Part shown: piece by piece, positions 1 to 38,731 of the stretch
How positions within the stretch are numbered: the first letter of the stretch is position 1
Layout: each line of letters begins with the position of its first letter
Source of the DNA: Lama glama
Lineage: Eukaryota
DNA length: 64,000 nucleotides
Assembly: GCA_028534125.1 (NCBI GenBank)
Contig: CM052838.1
Span: 65,968,001-66,032,000 of the forward strand
Direction of reading: 5' to 3'
Notes under the pieces: model-generated
What the model was told of the DNA's origin: nothing
The model's database searches: none
What the model saw: only the letters and a program-made list of their open reading frames with translations
Translations under genes and position numbers: made by a program

Positions 1-142
1 ATCTTTGTCACCAGTCTCCCAGAACGAGGTCCCTTTCCAAAGATCCCAGGGGTTGTGGTCCTCACTGTATTTACAAGGGGGTGCTTGTCTGACTTGCCCT
101 GGTTCACTGCTGTCTCTAATAATACCCAGCACATCTGTATGT

Positions 143-338
143 CCAGAGCACCACCAGGCAGAACTCACTGGGATGATGGGAATGTTCCCGAAGGCACTGT
201 CCAGTCTGACAGCCACCAGCCACGTGTGGGCACTGAGCTGTTAAAACGTGGCCAGTGCGACTGAAGAACTGAATTTTTTTCACCTAAATTAACTTAAATC
301 ACCACATATGCCTGGGAGTTCCACGTCCTCACATACAG
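143..338 (+). mobile_element. MER3-like hAT-Charlie DNA transposon (MITE), degraded
   Basis: GATGATGGGAATGTTC...CTGTCCA...AGCCACCAGCCACGTGTGG...GTGGCCAGTGCGACTGAAGAACTGAATTTTT follows the MER3 consensus as I recall it; boundaries approximate. Confidence 0.75.
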
Positions 339-1199
339 TTGTTTTATTTTAGTATCACTGGCTTCAGCTTCCTATCTTCAGAATCTCACCTTTAAATTTA
401 TGTTTAATTCAATCCCAAAATCCCATTCCTTTCACCAAAGTCAAAGACCTGGAGTCAGACCTTCCAGGCGAGGTCCGGTCCAGGGTCACCAGAGAGCCCC
501 TTTCCAAGCTGCTCAGTCTCACTGAGGACTTACCAAATGCAGCAAAGGGTCACCCAGGTGACTCTTCAACCCATCTGAACCAGCCTTGACCCCGAATCCC
601 TCCCACCCTGTCTCTCAGGGGCACAGCTGCAAGGCCACAGGGCCTGGCCACGGGTGGTGACTCGGTCCACTTTCTTTCTGACGAACTTACCTGCATGAGG
701 TCATCCCAGCGTGGCCCAGCCCTGCCAGCCAGAGGCCCTCCTCGGCCTGGAGGATAGAGGGCCCCCGCCTGCAGAAGGAGATGTGCCCTTGGCTGGGCAG
801 AGGTGGTGGGAATTACCTTGAGCCGGGACAGCCTCAGAGCCCACTGACTGGAGCAGGGAAGGCCTGCACACCCACTCTGGACTGCACCAGCCTCAGGGCC
901 GTGGGCAGGAGGACCCCAAGTGAGGGCTGAGGAGTGGGAGGGGCCAGGGGAGCACCTGCCCCTGTTGGCCCACTCTGCCTGCCCTGCTGCATCCCCTGAG
1001 GGCGGAGGGAGGTGGACCCGGGAGGGAGGGAGGGCCACCGCTGAGGCTCCTCGAGGCAGCAGCAGACCTGGCCCCCTAGGAAAGAGGGGGTGTGAGGAAC
1101 GGGCCTACCCAGACAGACCCACCGCTTCCCAGGCCATGGGAGAGCGTGGGGCTCTCTGCCTCTTCACACCTGGGGCCTGGGACTCCAACACCGCCCACC

Positions 1200-1950
1200 G
1201 TGTACTCTTCCCAAACTACCGCCCGGCAGGCGTGGAACGTGCCCACCACGCCCCCACACTGACACCTCCGGTCTCTGCCAGAAGCACAAGCAAGCCGCCT
1301 GGGCTCCTTGGGAGGGCGGGGGGGGAGGAGCGTGAGGGGGCGTGGCGGCGGGGGAGGAGCCCACCCTGAGAGCGAGGGGCTGGGCTGAAGGGGCGGCCGT
1401 GGCGCCTGCTCTGCGAGAGCGTCCCGAGGCCACGCGGGCTGGAGAGATGGGACAGGAGGACAGCGATGCGGCCACCAGGGGTCAGCCTCACTTCTCACTC
1501 ACACCTCCCCGGCTCCGATATGTCTGAAGGAGGGGCGTGGACAGTGGTCTTCGGAGGGGCAGGGCCTCCCCTGGCCGTCGTCCCCGCTGTCGGTGGAGGT
1601 GGCCTAGACGAGTGGGGGCCGTGATGGCTAAAACCCGGCGGGTCTCAGGACTTAAGCAGCTGGACCCCCGGAACCAAGTGCCAGACGCAGGGCTGGGGCC
1701 GCCGGAAGAGCCCGTTCAGGAGGAGGGAGTTGGCTCCGGTCGCGTGTCGGGGCGGGGCTGCAGGGCCACCCACTGCAGACGGACCGGAGAGCGCGGGTCT
1801 CCCACTCCCGCTGGCCTCCACCCAGCCCGCTGCCCTCTGCAGGCGGGACGCGACTCTTCGGGCGCGCAGGTGCGGGTTCGGTGGGAAACCCCGCCTGCGC
1901 CGAATCATCCGGAGTCCTAGGAAGGCAGTAGAAGGGCAGCAAACCTGGTG
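1200..1950. promoter_or_regulatory. CpG-rich island upstream of VENTX
   Basis: Visibly high GC and CpG density; boundaries by eye. Confidence 0.5.
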
Positions 1951-2458
1951 GCCGGTCCCTAGCAGCTCCGGAGGCTGCTCTGAAGCCAAGTGAGGAAGCT
2001 GAGGCCAAACGTGGGTTACACAGCTTTTACCCGGCCAGGTGTAGAGGGAGGGAAGGGGGACCCCAGTGGACACGGGCGAGCCTGAGCCCCTCGCAGCCTG
2101 GCGGAAATGACCGCTGGGAAGAGGCGCCAACCTAGGCAGCGCCTGCATCTGGAGGGGAGGGCTCAGAGGGTGGGGCCATCTGACCTGCTGAGGGGAGGTC
2201 ACCTTAGGACCCTGGAGGGGGAGGTTCAGATAGGGGCTGGGGAAGTGGAGGTGGGAGGGCCATTAGAGGAGGGTCCCGGAACAGGGAGGGAGCCGCCCAG
2301 TAGAGCTGGGGGATGGCTGCCAAGGATGGTTCCTGTGTGGGGCCAAGAGGCCAAGGGACCGGCCCTGAAAGGTTAGAAAGGAGGACACGCTAAAACTAGG
2401 TTTTGAAAGGCATGGTCCGTGTTAAAACCTGCCATTTCATAAATTAATGCTTTTAGCC

Positions 2459-2571
2459 GGGAGCGTACAGCTCAGTGGTAGAGATGCACCAGGTCCTGGG
2501 TTCAATTCCCAGTACCTCCATTAAAAAATACAAATAAAAACCTAAGTACCCCCCCCAATTTTTTTAACTTG
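2459..2571 (+). mobile_element. Camelid tRNA-derived SINE (Vic-1 type) with internal deletion
   Basis: A box AGCTCAGTGG, B box GGTTCAATTCC, tail ATTAAAAAATACAAATAAAAACCTAAGTACCCCCCC; flanking TSD-like repeats TAAATTAATGCTTTT (2440-2454) and TAAATTAGTGCTTTT (2572-2586). Confidence 0.85.
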
Positions 2572-2699
2572 TAAATTAGTGCTTTTGAGCACATGATGAA
2601 GTAGTGTGCACCTTGAGCAGTCGTGGGGGGGGTATTTATCCCCCAGGCCTCCACTGCTGTCCCTCCCGGAGGGCCTCCACGCAGCACCCTCTCCCAGCT

Positions 2700-3550
2700 C
2701 AGACGCTTTCGCCCGATTCTGAAACAGACACTGTCGCTGCGGAGCTGGAAGCATGCGCGCGGGCGTCCCTGGAGCAGCCCTGTGGCCGTACGACTTCCAG
2801 GACACCCTGCAGCCTCCCAGTAGACACCCCAGCTACACACAAGTGATTTTAGTCCCCGGCCTCACCCCGCCGGGTCCGGTGACAGAACTGAGCCGGCCCA
2901 AGGGCCAGAGGAAGAGCTGCGGTCAGGGCCTGCCGGTTCCCTGCTGTGTCAGGCTCCCGCATCACCAGCCCCGCCGCCCTGCCCCTCGGGCTCGAAGGCG
3001 GCGTTGGGGTGATAATTCGGAGGCGAAGCCCGCGGGGCCTTTGATGTCCGCGCGGCGGGGCGGGCGCGGAGGCGGCTTGGTGCTCCGCCTAGGCTGGCGC
3101 CGGCGCCCCCGGGAGTCGACGGTGCTGACTCCACCCGTCCCCTCGGAAACCCTGCGGCGGGCTGGGGGCCGACTCCGGCCGCCGGGGGCTCAGCGCGGAC
3201 CCAGAGCCCGCGCTCCGGGGGATGCGGCTTCTGCCGGTTGGGTCCTCGCGGACTGCCCTGCAGTCACGTAGGACGCACCACGTGTCCGTCTGCCGGGTAG
3301 CACCGAGGAGACAGACGCGGTCCGGCCAAGGTCGAGGGAGAGGTCCTGCCCAGCCCTCCGCCTCCCCGCGGAGCACCGGCGTCCCAGGCCTAGTCGAGCC
3401 CTTCCCCGAGGCCAGTGGGGCGCCCGGGACGCGGACGCGGCCGAAGAGGAGTGAAGCGACCGCGGCGCCAAGGGCAGGGACCGGTGACCGTCCCCAGGCC
3501 GTCACCCCCTGCAGCTCCTATGGCACCAGAGTGAAACCCAGCAGAGAGAT
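2700..3550. promoter_or_regulatory. CpG island upstream of VENTX
   Basis: Very dense CpG and GC boxes 0.7-1.5 kb before the VENTX start codon. Confidence 0.7.
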
Positions 3551-4004
3551 TGGGGGCGGCGAGGGAGAAGGGCCCACGGAGCCGGAGGGACCCTCTCTGA
3601 CCAGCCCCTCCCACCCTGTCTGGCTCGTTGCCAGCCCTACATTCCTACGCAGCGGGGCCACCGGGTTGCAGCAGACAGGGCACTGGCCAAGTCCACGCTG
3701 TCCTGGGAGTGGCCATGGGGACCTCCAGCTCCCTCAGGTGTGCACATCCGTCACTGCAGACCCACGGGGACAAGGTGGCGAGCCAACCTGGAGAGAGGAG
3801 ATAGCTCGGCACCCCATAGGACAAGCCCCCAGCTGGGGTGCTGGGTGGGAGGAGGCCACCCTAACCTTCCCACAGCGCAGGCCAGCGGGTGGGGGTGGGG
3901 GAGATGAAGGGATGTAGCAAGTCCCGGGTTACCACCTCTCCCCCGACTGTGGACCACAGCCCCGCCCTTCCCTCAGACATCTTGGAGCCGGGGAGGTGTG
4001 AATG

Positions 4005-4125
4005 GCCTCCTTTGTGCTTCTGAATTGAAGGCAATTAGGTGCTACTTATCTAGAGGGGTAGAAATTTGGGCCATCTACGAAAACCCGCCTCCACCCACCC
4101 ACCTCCTCCTGAGCTTATAAGTGCA
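4005..4125 (+). promoter_or_regulatory. VENTX proximal promoter with TATA-like element
   Basis: TATAA 4116-4120; CCTTTGTG 4009-4016 (SOX/TCF-type); CAATTAG 4032-4038 (homeodomain); CTTATCT 4045-4051 (GATA). Confidence 0.5.
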
Positions 4126-4276
4126 GCCCAGCCCTGCCAAACCTGAGGCAGACCCTATGCTCAGCTTGGCCCTGCCCCACCTGACAGACTGCGGACCCTG
4201 TTCCCAGCCCCCATCATCTGTCTTGCAGAGGATTCCGGCCAGGCCCCCACCATCTGTCCAGAGGAACTACCCAGCC

Positions 4277-6255
4277 ATGCCTCCATCCTCCGCCCTACCT
4301 GGTGGCTGCAAGCGGACCTCCAGCTTTGGCTCAGTGGACTGGCTCTCCCAGAGCAGCCACACAGGGCCGGCGCACACCTCCAGGCCTGCCGAAGTCTCCT
4401 GGGGGAGCCTGTCTGCCTCAGCCCAGGTGTACTGCAGAGGGGAGCCCCACCAGACTGTGGACATGGAGGAGGTGAAGCTCTCAGAAGTGTCTGCACCGGG
4501 GACGCCCGCAGCTGGTAGGTGTGGGGATGGGAGTCCGGGAGGGGGGTCAGAAAGAGGGTCACACCCCGGCCACATCCGTGTACCCTGGTCATCAGAGGGA
4601 CATTCTTGCCAAGGCTGAGGCTTAGGGTGGAGTCTGACACCTCCTGCAAGTGAACGCTTCCCCTGGGAAGCAAAGGCTACAACGGGGGCCTTCCTTGCTC
4701 AGCCCCCGGGCCTCCTGGGGCCGGCCCACCGGCGCAGTGAGCCACTGCGCCTACACTAGCACTTGGTGCCTGTGACTCAGGCTCTGAGATGAGCCCGTGG
4801 GGTGCACCTCTGCAAGAGGGCCGTGGGGAAGTGCGTCTCACCAGCTCATTCAGAGGGGTCTTGGGCCCTGCCTGCGAAGCTGGCGCCCTCCTTTGCCATC
4901 TAGACTGCGGCCGGTTCACCGGCTGATGGGGGGCCTGCAGGCTTGCTTAAGGGCAGCCACGGCCTGGATGCCATTTGCTCTCCTGTGGTTTCCAGACTCG
5001 ATGGAACCCTTTGTCGTTGGCTAAGACGTTCTTAGTCTGTCTTTCAGTCCTTGTGAGTTAATGGCTGTTTTTAGGTTTCAAGTGGCCAAAAGTGGGGTTG
5101 ATATTATCTGTAAGTTTTTATTTTAAGAAAAAGTTTAAATGATGACCATGGGGACTTCGTCGCCTCCTGGGGGGCGCTAGTGCTCCCTGCATGTCCTGAC
5201 TGAGCTATTAGGAGAACAGGCCTGCCTGAGACACACGGCTGGTGGTGACAGAGCCTGGGTCTCAGGGACGGGTACACCCGAGGCAGAACTCGTGAGAAGG
5301 CTTTCCGAGGATTTTGGGCCTCTGCCTGGGGTGGGCTTCGGCCCCCATGGCCACCCACCCCACCCAGCGAGTGGGAGTTCCTTGTCTGCAGGCAAAACAC
5401 ACTGCTTTCTGGAAGGGACTGCGCATCCCAGGCAGAGGGTGAGGGGCCGGCGTCAGAATTGCTGTCCGCTCTGTTGTCTTCTTGCCAACGTCCACGTTTC
5501 TGGGCCCCATTCCACACTTGAGCTGGAGGGGGAGTGGCTCTCCTTGACCCAGCAGGACGGCGGAGCAGGATGGGCTGTTCTCCGGAGAGAGGCGGGGGCG
5601 GGGGGGCTGCTCTCCCCGAGGCCCCAGCTACCATCCACAAGCACGAAGCCTGTCCCCACTTCTCCCACCGGGCAGCACTTCCAGCCAAATGGATTGGGTG
5701 CCCTTCTGTCCCCCTCAGGGCCGAGCAAGGAGGCGGACGGCACGCGGGCTCCCCGCATGCGCACGGCCTTCACGGTGGAGCAGGTCAGCGCCCTGGAGAG
5801 CTCCTTCCAGCACCGCCGCTACCTGGGGCCCCTGGAGCGCCGGCGGCTGGCCCAGGAGATGCAGCTCTCCGAAGTGCAGGTGAGGTGGCCGGCAGGCAGG
5901 GTGGTGGACTGTGGCCGCCCCCTCTCTGATCTCACTTTCCCCACAGGTAAAGACCTGGTTTCAGAACCGCCGAATGAAGCACAAGCGCCAGCTGCAGGAC
6001 TCCCAGCTGAGTCCACCCTTCTCCGCACCCCTCCACCCACCCCCTGCCCTGCACAGCCGCCTGCAGCTGCTTTGCCCTTGGGCCTCCTTGCCTGGGCCCC
6101 CAGCTCTGGTCCAGCCTCTGGGCTCTTTCTGGTGTCCCCGAGGGGTGAAACCAGCCTCCCTGGCTTCAGTGTGGGCCTCATGCAGCAGGCAGCCTCCAGT
6201 GTGCTGCCTCCGGTGTGCTGCCTCCCGGACACTGGGGGCTGGGTGCACACACTGA
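4277..6255 (+). CDS. VENTX: VENT homeobox protein; exon 3 frameshifted near the C-terminus (235 aa as read)
   Basis: Exons 4277-4514, 5719-5879, 5947-6255 with GT-AG introns in frame. N-terminal SSFGSVDWLSQSS motif; homeodomain APRMRTAFTVEQVSALESSFQHRRYLGPLERRRLAQEMQLSEVQ|VKTWFQNRRMKHKRQ. The ancestral-type tail ...GLCAPPATGDAF* (stop at 6320) lies in another frame. Confidence 0.93.
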
Positions 6256-6624
6256 GCCCAGCTTTGTCCAGGGGAGCCTGGGGCCTGTGCGCCCCACCAG
6301 CGACTGGGGATGCCTTTTGAGGAAGGGAGGCAGCTGACGCCCAGGGCTGCGGTGTATCAGATGTGCTGGGTGTGCGCAGCGGTACCTGGCATCTGCCTGG
6401 AGAGACAGCCTGGTCTGTATTTACACCACTGTGATGTCCTGGCGTGGGCCTGTGCCCCCCCAGCGGTGGGGCCTGCAATTGGCCCCGCCTAAGACTGGGG
6501 ATTTATAGCTGAAGACATTCTGAAGCCTATTCCCCTCTGAAAAGTGCTGAAGGGTTGGCGTGGAAAATGTTGGGTCGGCGAACAGTCGGAAGCCAAGCGC
6601 GCTGTGCCGCGTTGGGCTCCCACA

Positions 6625-6860
6625 CAACAAAGGGTAACTTACTCAGCTCAAGGGGCTGGAAAACTGGCTTTCCAGTTGGAAAAAATAAAGGTGGAGTCTG
6701 TCTTACGCTATATGCTTATAGGCTTTGTGTATGAAAATGAAACCTGACAGGACTGGGGGGAGCACTGAAGGCATCTGGGGTTTGAGTTCCGTGTTAACAA
6801 TGACCCCGAAGCTAGAAACCAGAAAGGGACAGAGATGATCAGTTTGCCTCTGAGAAGCTA
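6625..6860 (+). mobile_element. Old LINE-1 ORF2 3'-region fragment containing AATAAA (6684-6689), candidate VENTX poly(A) signal
   Basis: GGGGCTGGAAAACTGGCTTTCCAGTTGGAAAAAATAAAG and TTAACAATGACCCCGAAGCTAGAAACCAGAAAG resemble L1 ORF2 segments; highly diverged. Confidence 0.45.
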
Positions 6861-7599: not shown

Positions 7600-7719
7600 G
7601 GGGGGACGGAAGCAACTAGATTTACTGATTTTGTTTTTACTGAACAGAGGTGCTGGGGATTGAACCCATGACCTTATGCATGGTAAGCATGCGCCCTACC
7701 ACTGAGCTATACCCTCCCC
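7600..7719 (-). mobile_element. Camelid tRNA-derived SINE (Vic-1 type)
   Basis: Reverse complement GGGGAGGGTATAGCTCAGTGGTAGGGCGCATGCTTACCATGCATAAGGTCATGGGTTCAATCCCCAGCACCTC plus A-rich tail; flanks AGCTTTCGAATTT / AGCTTTTGAATTT look like a TSD. Confidence 0.9.
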
Positions 7720-10834: not shown

Positions 10835-10918
10835 CTCGCCGCCCCGTTTTCCCATGCCCTACACCTCTTTAGGCCCGACCCTCAAAGAAGTATATGCATA
10901 GGAAAAAGGAACAGCGAG
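10835..10918 (-). ncRNA. MIR202: microRNA miR-202 hairpin
   Basis: 5p arm UUCCUAUGCAUAUACUUCUUUG (reverse complement of 10883-10904); 3p arm AGAGGUGUAGGGCAUGGGAA (reverse complement of 10849-10868); basal stem CUCGC...GCGAG; syntenic position between VENTX and ADAM8. Confidence 0.96.
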
Positions 10919-30600: not shown

Positions 30601-33600
30601 CCAAGGACGGCGGGTGGCCGGTGCCAACTGGGGTCAAGTGTGTGGGGGAGGAAAGGGCTTCTCTGAGCTTGCACATCACCAACCTGTCACCACTGCTTAC
30701 CACCTATTCAGCGAGAGGCAGGGGTCCCTCGTGAGAGGTTCCCTTCTCCAACAGTGCGAACAGGGGGCACGCTCTGCACACATGGGTGCCTTGCAACCCC
30801 AGAAAGCCCTCACCTCTTCCAGACTGGGCTCCAGCCCTTGCGATAGATGACCACTCCTGCCACGGTGAGTGCCAGAACCACCAGGAGCACCACAGGAACC
30901 AGCACGCCCATCTGGAAGCTGCTGGATGCTGTGGGGGCATAGGAGGCTGGGTGTCACCAGGGCCGGACCTGGCTCGGGGCAGCAGGGGCCCCAGGGGGTG
31001 CCTTCCTCACGCCCCTCCTTGGCCATGCCGACAACCCGGAGCCCTGGGTCCTCCCCTAAATCCCAGGGCCATCTAAGGACCCTTGGCCTTGAGACCCAGT
31101 GCATTGCACTGGTGCTCTGGGCTCTCCGATGACCGGTCGGAGGGCTTGGCAGTGGATGGCCCCAGGCCCACAGTGATATGGGTGGAGCCCAACCAGGTCT
31201 AGAGGCCGTGGTGCTATGGATGGCCACATGTCCAGTGGCCACTGCGGAGGAAGATACTTCAGAGGGTGGGGGGCCCTGAGGTCCCCGGGCCCAGGCTGGG
31301 GCCGACAGTCCCGCCAGAAGCTGGCGCTATCCTGTGCTGCTCCTGCTCCGCTCCACCCAGGCCGGCCCCCCGTCTCAGTAGGGCTGAGGTGGGGGCACAG
31401 GCTCCTGGGCCCTGCCCTGGACCCCAGGGGTCAGAATGTCTGGGGCTGCAAAGCCACGTCTTCAATATGCTGCTCACAGTTTAGGGGCACCTGGCTTGCC
31501 TCTCAGCCCTGCCCCAGTGGTCTGAGAAAAGACAGAACCCTGACCAGACCCCGGAGGTGGCGCGGGCCCTACCTGTGCGCACATCGGACAGCAGCTCTGC
31601 GCAGTAGGGTGGGGCCCAGCCAGGGTGGCAGTGGCACTGGTCCTTGTGATTGCACACCTGGGGGACAACCAGGCATCAGGGTCTCCAGACCCCCGCCACT
31701 GCACCGCCTGGTGCCCACCCAGGTGCCATCTACTCCCGAGTCAGCAGGCCCGGCCTCAGCCTGCAAGGGGCTCTGCCCCGGCTTCCGCTGATGGAGGACG
31801 GGCTGGGCGTCCAGGGCTGCCACCATCAACCCACAGCAGCCCCTCCCCTGGGTGATGGAGGAGGGCTCCGATCGACAAGGCTTTCTGAGCAAAGCAGGAC
31901 GCCGCAGGGCAGGCAGGGCAGCTTTGTGGTGGGCCGTCCTCCCCGAGACGGGGGCACAGAGGGCCCTGCCCTGGGGCTCTGACCTCCCCTACATCACAGT
32001 ACATGTTATTAGGAGCTCAGAACAGAACACTTCCAATCTGACCAGCCTGGCCTGTGTGTTCTCCAGCACTGTGAGCACCCTGGGATGCCCAGATCCACGC
32101 CAGTTCCAGGCCTGAGAGGCCCCCGTGGGCTCCTGGCACAGTCCCCGGGCGCGGGCCTCTGCCCTGTTTGCCTGGGCTGCCCCGAGCACAGCCTACACAT
32201 CTTTGAGTCCAAAGGGTTGGTGGCAGGCCGTCCCCTGGGCCCACGTACCCCGTGGTTGCTGCACCGGGCAGAGCAGTTTCTGGATCTGTAAACGTGAAAG
32301 TCCCGGCAGAGTCCTTTCCAGCAAACCTGGGGGGCAGCGGGGAACTCTTAGGTAGCCAGTCTAGAACCTGCTTGGGGAACTGCCCCCCCATCAGTCGAAG
32401 CCCACCTGAAACCTGCAGCTGTGCTTCGGACAGGGAGGGGTGTGCCACGGCCCCACACCCAGGACAGCCCCATCTGCAGCCCAGCCTAGGCCCCCAAGGC
32501 CACAGAGGAGCGCCCCACCCGTCCCCGGGGAACTTGCAGAACAGACAGCCTTCAAATCCCTCAGCTGAGAAGGGGCTACTCCCCCAACGCTGAGAGCCTC
32601 CCGAGTTTCTACCCAGAACAGAGGCTACTGCACAGCCCTCCTCCCGCCAGGCTTTGGGCCCCTCGAGCTAATCCTGGGGACCCAGCAGTCTGACCGCAGG
32701 CTGCATCCAGCCCTACCTTCTCCTCCCCGCACCTGGCGCCTTCAGGCACCGGCTCGTAGGCAGTGCTGTCGTCCTGGCGCAGAGCCTGGCAGGCGCCCAT
32801 GCGGGAGTAGATGGTGCAGGAACCTCGCTCCAGGGGCTTCTGCCCGCCCTCGCAGAGCAGAGTGCCGCACATGTTGACCCTGAGGGCAGAGGGGTGTGCC
32901 AGGAGCCAAGTCCACAGCGTCTCCTGCTGAGGGGACTAGGAGCCGTAGGCAAGGCCTAGGACCCTCGGATGGGCTTTGGGGTCCACCCACAGGTGTTCAC
33001 ACCCCCAGCCACAGTGACCCACCCTCCCACAAGGGCAGCAGGCCCGGGGGTCCTAGAAGGCAGGGCAGGCCCTGGGAGGTCCCCTGACTCAGCCTGCAGA
33101 CTCCTTGGTGGCCCCACCTATGGGGACATCCCACACCCTGGGCCCAGGGGAGCCAGGTCACAGATGGACTATTACCTGTCAGAGCCCAGGGGGATCCCGC
33201 TGCTGCAGCCTGAGGAGATGCTGTGGGTGTAGCACATCTCCGCGGCAACCTGAGTGCCTGTGGGGCCAGGAGCAGTGAGTCCTCCAGCTCAGGACTGGCA
33301 GCCACCTGGCAGGCCAGCAGGTCCCACACCCAGGGCTCCTGCCCGCCTCACCTGGCCCCCACAGGTCCCGGCAACTCTGGGCCAGTGTGGGGCACTTCCC
33401 GTTGTAGCAGTAGCCCCCAGGGCAGGGCGTGCCATTCTCCTGGAAGGCGTCCTCCGGACAGGCTGGCTGCTGGCCGTCACAGTACTCCCCGAGGTCACAT
33501 AAGTCCTTCTCGGGGCGGCAGGGCTCTCCAGCTGGCTTCACCTGGTCCAGCAGAGCAAAGCTCACCATGGGAATAGAGGACCCCAGCACCCACGCCTGCC

Positions 33601-36600
33601 CTGCGCCGTGTCACCAGCACCCCCGGGCCCGTGCTCACCCTGCACTCATGGCAGCAGGCGCCGTGGGCACACTCGGCCCCCTCGGCCAGCAGGCAGGTGG
33701 TGGCATTGCAGCAGTGGTTCTGGCAGTCCTAGGGGCAGGCGCAGGGGCAGCGGTCTGAGCCGACCCAGGGCCCCTCCCCCGGGAGGTCCGCTCACTCCCA
33801 CCCGTGACCCCTGCCAGTCCGGTCAGTGCCAGGGAGCAGCAGGTGCGGCTGTGGGCGTGCAGGGCACCTGGGAGGTCAGGAGTGGACGCCCTGACCTGGG
33901 GATGGGGACCCCGCACCCCTACGCTGGTGGAGAGCAGAGGGCAGCGGGATGCTCGGCCCTGTACCTGGGGCGAGCCACAGTCGCACTGCTCCCCGTGCTC
34001 CACAAACCGGTTCCCACACACAGGGCCGCCCACCAGCCGGCTGAGGTCCGGGGGGTTCACCAGGCAGGCCGTCCTCGGCTTCTCCACAAACGTCTCCAGG
34101 TCGGTCTGGCTGCACTGGCTGAACTTTCTGGGGAACTTGGAGCTAAGGGGAGGGCATCCCTGTCATGGTGGTGGGCAGGCCGCCAGCCCCCAGGGTGCCC
34201 CCAGGGTGGATGGGGCCGGGCCTCACCCAATGCTGGCCGCCATGATGCAGCCACCGTCGGACCGTGGCACGGGGCAGTAGCAGCCCTGCACATTCTCATC
34301 GTGGTCCATGCCCAGGTTGTGGCCCATCTCGTGGGCCATGGTGCTCGCCACGCCAATGGGGTTCGGGCTGTGGTCCTGCAGGCAGGGCTGTGCTGGCTGG
34401 GGCCGTTCACATGGCCCGTCCACCCTCCCGCCCTGGCTGCCCCAAGCAGGCTGAGGGCCTTGGTGGCACTTCCTGCCAACATCACTTCTTAAAACGTAAA
34501 AGCATCAGTGCCTCTTCCAAAAGAGGAAGCTGCTCAGGTGTCCAGACAATAGCGTGGGGGGACGAGCAGGTGGACCTGAGTCCTGAGGTCCCCCTCATAC
34601 ATCCGAGCTCCAGCTCTTGAGCCCTGCTCCCCACCCAGCGGCCAGCTCCAGCCTTTTTCCAGCAAAACCTAGGCCGGATCTCCACACCTGGTTCACAGCC
34701 CCCGAGCCCTGGAAGCACATGGCGGACACCTTGGCCAGTCCCACGGTGGTCCCGGTGAAGTCAATCCCTCTGGAAACGAGAGCAGTGTCTGCATGTGGAC
34801 ACCCCGGGACCACCCTGGTGCCGCTCTCCCAGCCCCATGTGTGGTCCTCTGCCCCCGCTCACGTGATGAGCTGCGCGTTGTCGTGGGGGCGGCGCCCTGC
34901 CAGTTCCCGAGCCTGCCAGGCCAGGAAGTTCTCCAGGGTGGCGTTGGCCTGGGAGCTGATGTGAATCTTGTCCCCACTGTTCCAGATCTCCAGGCCCACC
35001 AGCACCACACGGAAATTCAGTTCTTGATAAAGCTGGGAGAACAGGGGTCCCGAGGGTCAGGTTCAAGATGGTTAGGCCGGTGAGAGGGCCGGCGCCCCTC
35101 AGGCAGTGTCCATGCGATGGACTTGTCACCAGTACAGGGCCAAGTCCCAGCTCCCTCCTCTCCTGGCTCTACCTGCTGCCAGGCCCATCACAGCCAGCCC
35201 CTCCTCTCCTCTTCAGGTGCCGTCAAACCTCCACAATCAGGGTTTCTGTTGGGCTGGAGTCTGCCTGGTCCGGAATGGACCCGGATGTCCTGGAAGTCCC
35301 TGCTGGGAGGACCCCTAGCAGCCCCTAGAGGAGAACCCCCACCCCGGCAGAAGTGGCCCCTACCTTGTCCACGTGGTTCACCACCTCCAGCACCCGCCTG
35401 CGCACGGCTTCTCTGCTCCCCAGCTGTTGGAACTGGGGGACAGCGGACCCTCAGGTTACAGCCCGTCAGCCGTCTGGGTCCTGCCCCCTGTGCCCACCCC
35501 ACATACCTCTGTGCTGTCCGTGACCACGTACAGCTCCACGTAGCGGGTCTCTCGGGATAGTGGCCAGTTCTGAGGGGCAGTGGCAGGAAGCCGGTCAGCC
35601 ACAGCCACAGCCCTGCTGTCCTTAGACAGCCTTCACACACTGACCCCACACAGTGCTCGGGGAAGCCAGGACTGGGCCCACCCCAGTACAGGGCAGCAGG
35701 CAGCACCCCCACTTCGTTGAGCACACAGGAGTCTGGGGGCTGCAGGGGCCCAAGTGGATGGGGATGAAGTGAGTCAGGTCCCCCTCACCCGGGGCCTGAA
35801 GGCTGCCGAGATCCGCGGCCCCAAGGCGCTCTGCAGGCTGCTGTCGCTGACCCCACAGGTGCCAGCCTTCTGCCGCAGATGCCTTGCCTGGTACAGCGCG
35901 TGCTGCTCCTCCTCCCCGCCCACTTCCAGGGGCTCAATCAGGTGGAAAGCGGAGCCGGCCTGGAAGAAGCCCCTGGCAGAGGGAGCAGGTGGCTTGGGGT
36001 TAGTCAGTCCCCTGCCTGCCCCTCCAGGGAGGCACAGGCGGCCCTGGCCAGCGACATGCAGCAGGACAGTGCCTTCAGGGCCCTGCGGGGGCCTGTGACA
36101 TCTAACTGGGGCCCCGACACCCCAGTGCAGCAGGTGTCCCCAGGTCCCCCCTCTCTTCTGGGCCTCGGTTCACCTCCCTGGAGACGGAGGAGTGCGTCGG
36201 GCCCTGACACTGACATGCCTGGCCCAGGGCTGCAGCACCCACCTGAGACCAGCACAGGTGCTGAGGCTGGCGGCGGAGTGCTGGTACCCCTCCACGTGGC
36301 CCTGGTAGAAGCAGTGATCCTGCAGGAGGAGGGCATGAAGACCCTGCTCTAGTGCCCCAACTCCCAGCACCCCCACTGCCAGCCTGGAGAGGGCCACCCT
36401 GGGGCCCATACCTGCCTCTGCAGCTGCTCGGTCACCTGGGAGCCATTGTCAGCCACGTAGGTCTCCATGTAGCCTGAGCCCACCAGGTCCCTGGAAAAGA
36501 GCCCCTGTGGCACTCTGGGCCCCACTTGATTTCCCCTAGAAGCCACCTCTGGTGTGGAGGGGCTGGGCCAGGGGGGCAGGACGCCTGGGACACAGGAGTG

Positions 36601-38731
36601 CTGGGGGCAGGAGAGGGACCAGCCTGGGGACCGAGACCTGGGCAGGCTCAGACCCTGCTCACCTGTTCTTCCGAAGGTGCAGGGTGTAGTTGTGCCCTCG
36701 GGCCCCCAAGATATAGCTCACGCTCTCTGGGTACAGGCCCTGAGCCAGGGGAAAAGGGAGGAGTCCACGATGAAGGGCCCTGCCCCAGCCACGTTCACTT
36801 CAAAGCTGGGGGTGGCTGAGTCAGGCCAGTGGAAGGAGGTAGGGCCCAAGGCTGCACTGGAAGGGTCAAGGCAGCAGGGAGCTCCACCCAGAACCACACC
36901 GGGCCCCTCCAGGCTTACATCCCCCATATGTCCATGCAGGGAGAGTGACAACATCCTTTTTCCAGGAAGAAAGGGATGGGAGACAGCTTCTGACAGACAA
37001 CCCTAGAACCAAGGCAGCAGAGGTGTGGGGCGGGGCCGTCCCTCCTACAGCAGGTGAGCTTTCGACCTTGGGCCCAATTTGAGGGGCGCTCCTGCCAGCT
37101 GCTGGCCCCTTGGGACAGTGTGTGCCATGTCACAGGGTAGGCTGAGGGCCCAGGTGGCAGGCGGCTCTTCTGCACTGAGGTCAGGATGGGGNNNNNNNNN
37201 NNNNNNNNNNNNNNNNNNNNNNNNNNNNNNNNNNNNNNNNNNNNNNNNNNNNNNNNNNNNNNNNNNNNNNNNNNNNNNNNNNNNNNNNNNNNNNNNNNNN
37301 NNNNNNNNNNNNNNNNNNNNNNNNNNNNNNNNNNNNNNNNNNNNNNNNNTGCGCACTTGACGCAGGAATGCCCCCGGGCAGCCCCGGGGAATCCCCGCCC
37401 CAGATGTCCGAGAAAGGTGTAATGCTACACGCCCTGGGGAGCCACCCCCTCCCATCTAAGAGGAATCTGACTTATCGCTGGAGTGAAACTGAGGAGTGGC
37501 CCAACCAGCGTGGTTCCTGAAAGGAAGACAGGGCGGCTGCAGTGGGTGCCACCCCACGCAGGGTGTGCGTGAGGCCGAGGACGGAAGGTGAGGCCTGGGG
37601 GAAGGGGGTGGCTTGGACAGAGACCGCCCAAGTGGGCTGAGCCCCCTCCATGGTTTGCCCCAAATCCAGAAGTCCACCTGGCCCTCAGCACCAAAGGCCA
37701 CCCTCCACATCGGGCTGGGCTATCATCTCACTCTCAGAAGGAAACTGGCTCAGAGGGATGGGGTGAGCGAGGTGGGGAACCCCAGGCCAGCTTCCTGTCG
37801 AGACTTACCAAGTGGGAGGGCAGGGCTCGGCGGGTGCGGGTTCCTGGCAGGCGCCGGGGCTGCACCACCTCGTACTGCTCCACGTGGGGCAGAGCGGCCC
37901 TGGGGGCGACCACTGCGGGAGAGCCCCCGGCGTGAGCAGGCGCACGGGCACTCTCTGGCCCTGGGGCTCCCTCCCCACAAGGAATCGCCTGGAAACTCTG
38001 AGGTCTGAGGTCGAGCTCCCAAGCCCAAGTAGGAGCTCAGCATTAAAAAGACCATCGGACCCCCACCCTGGGTGAAGCCAGGCAGACTTGTGCCTGGCAG
38101 TGCCCAGGGATCCTGCCCGGCGCCAGCCCTTCCAGGGGCCCACCAGGCTGCCCCCGGTGCTCAGGGTGGCCCAGACATCTTGCTCAGGAACTGAGGATGC
38201 GCACTGGCCCCGGAGGGGGCGGGTCTGCCCACCCAGCACCTGTGGTTTATACTTCTCAACTAACCACAGAACTGCCTTGAGCTGGGACCTGGCAGCCCCC
38301 ACCCCTGCCTGCAGGCAGCTCACCTAGCCCAGACCTGGAAGTTGTCCCACAGCCCCAGGCCGTTGGTCCTCAGTCCTCTCTTCCCTGCCAGGCTGGGGGA
38401 TCCCAGTGAGGGTGGGCTATCTCCCCAGGGCCCCAGGATGGAGGGGAAGCGGCAGGGTCCTCCACCCTGCTGTGTCCCTGCCCCAGCCCCCACCTCCAGC
38501 GCAGGAAGTGCCAGGTGCCGGTTCTCAACAGTTCCCTTTTGAAGGTTCTGTGTCCGCTGCCCAGGGCCTCTCCGCTGAGTGACCACCTCTGCTCCTCCTG
38601 ATTCCCAGATATCAGCCCTGAGCCCCGTGGGGGACACAGAAGGCCAAGTGGCCGAACCAGCCAGAGTGGGATGCGCATCACTCACCCTGCAGCCACAGCA
38701 CACTGAGCAGCAGGAGCCCGAGGCCGTGCAT
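27685..38731 (-). CDS. ADAM8: ADAM metallopeptidase domain 8 (CD156a), 24 coding exons, 837 aa
   Basis: Exons: 38731-38686, 37912-37809, 36739-36663, 36490-36412, 36319-36243, 35972-35789, 35569-35507, 35432-35364, 35032-34863, 34769-34688, 34375-34227, 34142-33965, 33728-33639, 33541-33352, 33257-33176, 32879-32717, 32326-32249, 31657-31573, 30928-30814, 30273-30087, 29681-29616, 29435-29385, 28121-28044, 27735-27685; total 2514 nt, open frame. Signal peptide [15 protein letters not shown], zinc motif [12 protein letters not shown], Met-turn CIM, disintegrin [13 protein letters not shown]-like domain, TM helix, proline-rich tail ending [11 protein letters not shown]. Confidence 0.97.
28730..28800 (+). 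mobile_element. LINE-1 (L1M-type) 3' terminus fragment
   Basis: TATTTTTGTAACTTTAATGTAAGTCTAAAATTACTTCAAAGTAAAAAGTTAAAAA resembles an L1M 3' end. Confidence 0.6.
37192..37349. other. Assembly gap (158 N) in ADAM8 intron 2
   Basis: Run of N. Confidence 1.

What the first reader, a model, noticed from the sequence alone, without database searches (positions are those of the whole stretch)
6192..6320. 14-bp tandem duplication frameshifts VENTX and cuts off its conserved C-terminus
Seen: GCCTCCAGTGTGCT (6192-6205) is followed by a near-copy GCCTCCGGTGTGCT (6206-6219). The spliced frame therefore ends ...PPVCCLRCAASRTLGAGCTH* at 6255. Removing 14 nt restores one frame reading ...PPVCCLPDTGGWVHTLSPALSRGAWGLCAPPATGDAF* (stop at 6320, 252 aa). 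Recalled: human VENTX ends ...GPALSTGPRGLCAMPQTGDAF, and Ventx is absent in mouse. Inference: this lineage or allele makes VENTX with an intact homeodomain but a replaced tail, either early gene decay or a functional change. The stop is in the last exon, so NMD is not expected. One mismatch between the copies argues against a simple assembly stutter.
Basis: partly seen in the sequence, partly recalled or inferred. Interest (0 to 1): 0.75.

Follow-up and report, generated by a model that had tools for sequence, protein, structure and literature searches.

The report
Camelid VENTX lost its tail
An old 14-base duplication shared by camels cut the conserved last 31 residues off the developmental and immune regulator VENTX, while the available pig and whale versions of the gene look more badly broken.

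Summary
Confirmed. A period-14 repeat (6192-6225, 2.4 copies) shifts the frame in the last exon of VENTX: 31 ancestral residues become 14 new ones (235 aa instead of 252). It is neither an assembly error nor a private allele. NCBI models of Bactrian camel and dromedary end in the same tail. A second dromedary model, read in another frame, shows its two copies are identical, so the mismatch at 6198 is a later CpG change. The window is a camelid outside Camelus (inferred), so the lesion predates a split dated 11-25 Mya. N-terminal motif, homeodomain, splice sites and poly(A) signal are intact. Exon 3 shows modest purifying selection after the lesion (CpG hits 4 of 6 synonymous, 2 of 18 non-synonymous, p=0.018), but non-coding baselines cannot exclude neutrality. 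The wider pattern is new to my searches: none of 7 named cetartiodactyl models in the count keeps the ancestral end, pig and baleen-whale homeodomains are damaged, and no ruminant model was found. Best reading: a truncated, weakly constrained VENTX surviving in an order that is losing the gene.

The parts
4116..4120 (+). TATA-like element 160 nt upstream of the ATG
   Evidence: motif scan; function inferred
4277..4514 (+). VENTX coding exon 1 (ATG in a good Kozak context); conserved N-terminal motif at 4319-4357
   Evidence: motif 93% mean pairwise identity in 23 intact orthologs
5719..5879 (+). coding exon 2; homeodomain positions 1-44 at 5748-5879
5880..5946 (+). 67-nt intron 2 with strong donor and acceptor; 67+14=81 nt, so retaining it reads into the ancestral tail without homeodomain helix 3
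   Evidence: dromedary isoform X1 model P0080
5947..6255 (+). coding part of exon 3 as now read; homeodomain positions 45-60 at 5947-5994
6036..6037 (+). approximate site of a 21-nt in-frame deletion (7 residues) shared with both Camelus species, absent in hippo and whales
6192..6225 (+). 14-bp tandem duplication, 2.4 copies, bounded by the 6-bp microhomology GCCTCC; A at 6198 is a later CpG change
6211..6255 (+). new 14-residue tail and TGA stop; the stop needs the A at 6255, where the old frame has Ser and 34 of 39 intact tails have Gly
6225..6320 (+). ancestral 31-residue tail and its stop, still open in the old frame but out of frame in spliced mRNA
6684..6689 (+). AATAAA poly(A) signal
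   Evidence: use inferred

Best explanation
Shown: the window holds the three-exon VENTX gene of a camelid. A 14-bp tandem duplication in the last exon replaces the last 31 residues with 14 unrelated ones, and the same tail is in dromedary and Bactrian models. Inferred origin: strand slippage between two GCCTCC hexamers 14 nt apart made a perfect duplication on the camelid stem; one copy later lost a CpG in the window's lineage. Inferred consequence: the stop is in the last exon, so the mRNA should escape nonsense-mediated decay. The protein keeps the N-terminal motif, a normal homeodomain and 72 of about 110 ancestral post-homeodomain residues, and loses the terminal LPxTGDAF motif. The tail is probably a flexible partner-binding or turnover segment at the end of the region described as the repressor domain in frog and fish Vent proteins. 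The likeliest state is a DNA-binding hypomorph under weak purifying selection. The lesion was tolerated because selection on VENTX slackened across even-toed ungulates, with pig and baleen whales going further.
For: Same tail in two Camelus species at 96-97% identity over the whole exon. Dromedary copies identical, a 20-nt perfect run. Window groups with Camelus at 100/100 yet differs from them by 4-5 of 155 residues, against 1 of 155 between the two camels. Dromedary homeodomain (1 residue from the window's) scores 74.4 bits against 75.3 for rhino; the only change at 35 invariant positions is I45V. Window versus dromedary, exon 3: 6 synonymous changes in 66 sites, 4 non-synonymous in 196 (ratio 0.22, p=0.018); CpG-aware 4 of 6 against 2 of 18 (p=0.018). 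Of the named cetartiodactyl models counted, 7 of 7 lack the ancestral end. Pig homeodomain is below the Pfam cut-off (19.8 against 22.9 bits); gray and blue whale each change 7 of 35 invariant positions, including F8S, F20S and Y25C. Mouse and rat lack the gene (PMC3141429, passages).
Against: The selection signal rests on 10 changes in one exon of one species pair, inferred from two protein models rather than DNA. Against translated non-coding DNA the ratio is 0.64 (95% CI 0.24-1.55); by baseline it is 0.49 (intron 1, p=0.15), 0.55 (pooled, p=0.14) or 1.0 (upstream). Non-CpG changes alone are not significant (p=0.26). No expression or protein data were available. The pig, whale and hippo evidence is automated gene models, mostly one record per species, and may hold assembly errors. 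No function for the mammalian tail was found in the papers seen.
Confidence: 0.58

Rival explanations
1. Camelid VENTX is already a neutral, possibly transcribed pseudogene. The duplication and the 21-nt deletion are the first marks of decay, and the rest of the frame has survived by chance.
For: Coding and translated non-coding divergence are not significantly different, 8 of 234 against 18 of 338. Two indels lie in one exon. Relatives look worse.
Against: CpG-aware and synonymous comparisons favour constraint. No stop or frameshift lies before 6210 in the window or in the matching parts of the two camel models (exon 1 seen in dromedary only). Motif, homeodomain, splice sites, Kozak and poly(A) signal are intact. 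The camelid path on the tree (about 0.24) is shorter than pig, whale or hippo (about 0.38).
Confidence: 0.28
2. The truncation was selected. Removing a terminal repression or degradation motif changed VENTX output in camelid myeloid cells or embryos, and a G-to-A change at 6255 then trimmed the aberrant tail from 93 to 14 residues.
For: Fixed in three camelids. The stop depends on a base where 34 of 39 intact tails have Gly and none has Ser. Four other mammals have tails in the same shifted frame.
Against: Thirty single-base changes could have made a stop somewhere in that read-through, so chance suffices. Repeated tail loss fits dispensability as well. No phenotype or sweep data.
Confidence: 0.07
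3. The ancestral tail is still made. Retention of the 67-nt intron 2 offsets the 14-nt insertion, giving a second isoform with the tail but without the recognition helix, so DNA binding and tail function are split between isoforms.
For: The frame is open from exon 2 through intron 2 to 6320. A named dromedary isoform X1 has this structure, in a cluster of 4 members. The old-frame tail differs at 0 of 35 residues between window and dromedary.
Against: Intron 2 has strong splice sites (donor 8 of 9 consensus matches). Zero changes has probability 0.08-0.29 at the non-coding rates. The camelid old-frame tail departs from well conserved residues at 5-6 positions. A predictor could build this model just to reach the homologous tail.
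Confidence: 0.06
4. Assembly artefact or rare allele.
For: No raw reads were seen.
Against: The same tail occurs in independent assemblies of two other species.
Confidence: 0.01

Closest known systems
Mammalian VENTX (NKL/ANTP homeobox, Vent family; rhino, horse, carnivore, bat, primate orthologs)
   Same: N-terminal motif, homeodomain with Thr47, post-homeodomain region in frame up to 6210, neighbourhood with mir-202 and an ADAM gene.
   Different: Lacks the last 31 residues with the terminal LPxTGDAF motif, and a further 7 residues after the homeodomain.
VENTX models of dromedary and Bactrian camel (P0002, P0001, P0080)
   Same: Same shifted tail, stop and 7-residue deletion. The lesion is thus implicit in public annotation.
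   Different: Window differs by 8 of 234 residues from dromedary and has an imperfect repeat; NCBI models add N-terminal extensions or retain introns.
Loss of Ventx in mouse and rat (PMC3141429)
   Same: Shows that a mammal can do without the gene. The paper's table also scores cow and pig as absent.
   Different: Rodent loss is deletion of the gene; here a near-complete frame remains. That table also scores horse as absent, although horse has an intact model, so its absences are weak.
Damaged VENTX models of pig, baleen whales and hippo (P0066, P0059, P0061, P0073, P0042)
   Same: Same order; ancestral end missing from every model.
   Different: Pig and whale lesions hit the homeodomain; the camelid lesion spares it. 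Hippo keeps the homeodomain, but its model has no exon 1 and a foreign tail. No lesion is visibly shared among the lineages.
Last-exon frameshifts that escape nonsense-mediated decay (general class, recalled)
   Same: Stop in the final exon with a short new C-terminus.
   Different: Fixed across a family for millions of years rather than a rare disease allele.

Membership tests
VENTX ortholog | Complete 60-residue homeodomain with Thr at position 47 | tested here: met
   Thr47 as Vent/Bar mark from PMC8911082 passage
VENTX ortholog | Conserved N-terminal SSFGSVDWLSQSS motif | tested here: met
VENTX ortholog | Groups with named VENTX in species order | tested here: met
   sister to Camelus 100/100, within a cetartiodactyl clade 88/97 (25 rows, no paralogs included)
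VENTX ortholog | Syntenic position before MIR202 and ADAM8 | tested here: met
   mir-202 at 10839-10914, ADAM zinc motif near 34333; the expected gene order and the name ADAM8 are recalled
VENTX ortholog | Ancestral mammalian C-terminal motif (typical, not defining for orthology) | tested here: not met
   out of frame in the spliced mRNA
Unitary pseudogene | Lesion that destroys the main domain or triggers decay of the mRNA | tested here: not met
   homeodomain intact, stop in last exon
Unitary pseudogene | Lesion fixed and shared among related species | tested here: met
Unitary pseudogene | dN/dS near 1 after the lesion | tested here: inconclusive
   0.18-0.22 against exon-3 synonymous sites, 0.49-1.0 against non-coding proxies
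Unitary pseudogene | No functional transcript or protein | not testable with these tools
   no RNA or proteomic data
Processed VENTXP-type retrocopy | No introns, non-syntenic site | tested here: not met
   two GT-AG introns; mir-202 next door

The most novel reading that the evidence does not exclude
VENTX has been decaying independently across even-toed ungulates, and camelids keep the order's best preserved copy as a tail-less DNA-binding form still under selection. Retention of the 67-nt intron supplies the ancestral tail on a second isoform that cannot bind DNA. Pig and cattle would then resemble mouse, not human, in lacking this pluripotency- and macrophage-linked factor.
Probability: 0.12. 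Interest if true: 0.68.

Novelty: new variant of a known kind. Interest (0 to 1): 0.42.

Why it matters
Human VENTX is tied to macrophage differentiation, haematopoiesis and Wnt/LEF repression, and frog Ventx to pluripotency (PMC8911082, passages and part of section 4). Its absence is usually described for rodents. If VENTX is also broken in pig and whales, missing in ruminants and truncated in camelids, livestock models of human embryos and myeloid immunity share the mouse's gap. The camelid form is also a natural deletion mutant that points to an unstudied conserved terminal motif, which can be tested directly. A specialist would find this useful rather than startling: the gene is known to be dispensable, and last-exon frameshifts are a familiar class.

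Tried and rejected
Assembly error and private allele: rejected. Retrocopy: rejected. Rescue by a cryptic intron inside exon 3: 18 GT-AG pairs would restore the frame, but the best donor matches 5 of 9 consensus positions against 8 and 7 for the real introns (consensus recalled, crude score), so none is favoured. Folded domain in the tail: a model of rhino VENTX from a 10-row alignment is confident only in the homeodomain, with residues 205-256 nearly all under pLDDT 50, and the tail has no Pfam match; a shallow alignment cannot prove disorder. Dating the duplication from decay of the old tail failed: 67% identity to 13 laurasiatherian tails against 74% among them, 5-95% range 65-84. The upstream baseline is a CpG island and may not be neutral; its site count was 374 and 371 with corrected coordinates. 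Three exon-1 codon look-ups were mis-indexed and not used. No South American camelid, wild camel or ruminant was named. Which species stand behind the 2- and 4-member camel clusters stayed unchecked. Camelid DNA, reads and RNA were out of reach. Literature: nine VENTX searches listed no title or abstract on a camelid or artiodactyl lesion; one search was swamped by papers without VENTX. Term searches in the held supplements of three gene-loss screens found no VENTX, but their full tables may not be held. The camelid genome paper was not held.

Full report
Observation. The two 14-mers are at 6192-6205 and 6206-6219, and a third GCCTCC follows, so the array is 6192-6225 with 2.4 copies and 19 of 20 matches. 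None of 300 simulated pieces of like composition gave such a run. The gene has three coding exons (4277-4514, 5719-5879, 5947 onward) with GT-AG introns and encodes 235 residues ending at TGA 6253-6255. A TATA-like box (4116), a good Kozak context and an AATAAA (6684) are present. mir-202 lies at 10839-10914 and an ADAM zinc motif near 34333, as expected for the VENTX locus (gene order recalled).

It is real and old. A search with exon 3 returned 50 proteins from 1221 candidates. The top two are VENTX models of Camelus bactrianus and C. dromedarius at 97% and 96% over the whole query, and both end in the same 14-residue tail. A dromedary isoform X1 model (P0080) retains intron 2 and so reads exon 3 in a second frame. 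The two frames together fix the dromedary bases: it has G where the window has A at 6198, which makes the copies identical over a 20-nt run. The mismatch is therefore a later CpG transition. The window differs from the camels by 4-5 of 155 residues in exons 2-3, and they differ from each other by 1; it groups with them at 100/100. I infer a South American camelid, though no database row named one. The Old/New World split is put at 11-25 Mya and the dromedary/Bactrian split at 5-8 Mya (PMC4884201, passages); the latter is a floor that does not depend on my species inference.

Origin. The ancestral single copy already had GCCTCC twice, 14 nt apart. Slippage between these hexamers explains the duplication (inference). 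A second camelid lesion, a 7-residue in-frame deletion near 6036, is absent from hippo and whale models. The new stop depends on A at 6255, where 34 of 39 intact tails have Gly and none Ser. Without it the shifted frame would run 93 residues to 6492. Thirty single-base changes could have made some stop in that stretch, so this may be chance.

What was lost. I used 59 of the 82 proteins returned by three searches, leaving out 22 unnamed rows and isoform P0080. Of these, 39 have the ancestral end and 20 do not; the rows are 90% clusters and not independent. In 23 intact orthologs mean pairwise identity is 93% for the N-terminal motif, 83% for the homeodomain, 63% after it, 65% for the 31-residue tail and 53% for the N-terminal linker. 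The tail is thus moderately conserved, with a sharper terminal motif: L 34, P 36, G 33, D 34, A 39 and F 37 of 39 (the set was chosen by a pattern on the last four residues, so those counts are partly circular). A structure model of rhino VENTX shows no fold there. A review describes the C-terminal region of frog and fish Vent proteins as the repressor domain (PMC8911082, passages); I saw no mapping for the mammalian tail. The camelid protein keeps 72 of about 110 post-homeodomain residues.

Is the camelid gene still selected? The dromedary homeodomain scores 74.4 bits against 75.3 for rhino and 76.7 for human. Window and camels change only I45V among 35 positions invariant in 17 intact orthologs; Val also stands there in elephant seal and squirrel monkey models. 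Window against dromedary in exon 3 before the shift: 6 synonymous changes in 66 detectable sites and 4 non-synonymous in 196 (p=0.018). CpG transitions hit 4 of 6 synonymous and 2 of 18 non-synonymous opportunities (p=0.018). These changes postdate the duplication. Against this reading, non-coding DNA that the NCBI models happen to translate diverges by 18 of 338 residues and the coding exons by 8 of 234, ratio 0.64 with CI 0.24-1.55. By baseline the ratio runs from 0.49 to 1.0, none significant, and non-CpG changes alone give p=0.26. Weak constraint is favoured; neutrality is not excluded.

The wider pattern. A profile search gave 75 proteins at E<=1e-40 from 8000 scored, and an N-terminal search 17 from 163. 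All 7 cetartiodactyl models in the count lack the ancestral end. The pig model has insertions in the homeodomain and no recognisable helix 3, scoring 19.8 bits against a cut-off of 22.9. Gray and blue whale each change 7 of the 35 invariant positions. Gray whale shifts frame soon after the homeodomain, and blue whale is labelled low quality and stops at 136 residues. Hippo keeps the homeodomain, but its model has no exon 1 and a foreign tail. No ruminant was named in any search; that is weak evidence given the thresholds and the word-based candidate step. Outside the order, giant pangolin, West Indian manatee, black flying fox and northern elephant seal models end in the same shifted frame as the camelid. 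These are automated models without DNA checks, and some may be assembly errors.

An alternative route to the tail. Intron 2 (67 nt) plus the insertion (14 nt) is 81 nt, so retention keeps a frame open to 6320. P0080 has this form and its homeodomain match ends at profile position 45 of 57. The old tail is identical in window and dromedary (0 of 35), which has probability 0.08-0.29 at the non-coding rates. The intron's splice sites are strong, so I rate a functional isoform unlikely.

Literature. PMC3141429 (passages) reports loss in mouse and rat; its table scores cow, pig and also horse as absent, the last contradicted. PMC7190326 (passages) and PMC10047103 (one reference-list hit) added nothing on mammalian loss. 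Nine VENTX searches, seen as listings and abstract openings, and term searches in the held supplements of PMC7498332, PMC6760925 and PMC5865188 showed no report of the camelid lesion or of order-wide decay. Subscription papers, bioRxiv supplements and genome-alignment databases were not searched and may list it.

Verdict. A real, family-wide last-exon frameshift in an otherwise intact VENTX ortholog. It is most likely a tolerated partial loss in an order where the gene is eroding (0.58), less likely a neutral pseudogene (0.28), a selected change (0.07) or a two-isoform split (0.06). New variant of a known kind; interest 0.42.

Noticed in passing
window 5880-6320; P0080: Intron 2 (67 nt) and the 14-nt insertion sum to 81 nt; retention gives an open frame to the ancestral stop, annotated as dromedary isoform X1.
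   Followed up: partly
window about 6036-6037: Second camelid lesion: 21-nt in-frame deletion after the homeodomain, in a C-rich stretch.
   Followed up: partly
window 6253-6255 and 6490-6492: The new stop needs a camelid G-to-A change; without it the shifted tail would be 93 residues.
   Followed up: yes
P0055, P0056, P0058, P0060 against window 6040-6110: All 4 lemur-group models read a stretch after the homeodomain in a shifted frame and then return, which looks like a compensated double frameshift.
   Followed up: no
P0029, P0026, P0078, P0014: Pangolin, manatee, flying fox and elephant seal models end in the same shifted frame as the camelid gene.
   Followed up: partly
window 3001-3500 and 3222-3737: CpG island (o/e 0.95). 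The dromedary model P0002 places an upstream exon here, spliced over 3738-4228 to exon 1, which would add 187 residues; status unknown.
   Followed up: partly
window 6015, 6039, 6045, 6053, 6170, 6198: At all 6 CpG-type differences from dromedary in exon 3 it is the window that lacks the CpG.
   Followed up: no
window 10839-10914 (-): mir-202 precursor, 97.5 bits.
   Followed up: yes
window 33498-34504 (-): ADAM-type zinc-binding and disintegrin-like exons, presumably ADAM8 (name recalled).
   Followed up: no
window 2458-2530 (+) and 7645-7716 (-): tRNA-like short interspersed elements; the second passes the Rfam tRNA threshold at 36.7 bits.
   Followed up: no
window 37192-37349: Assembly gap of 158 N, far from the finding.
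   Followed up: no
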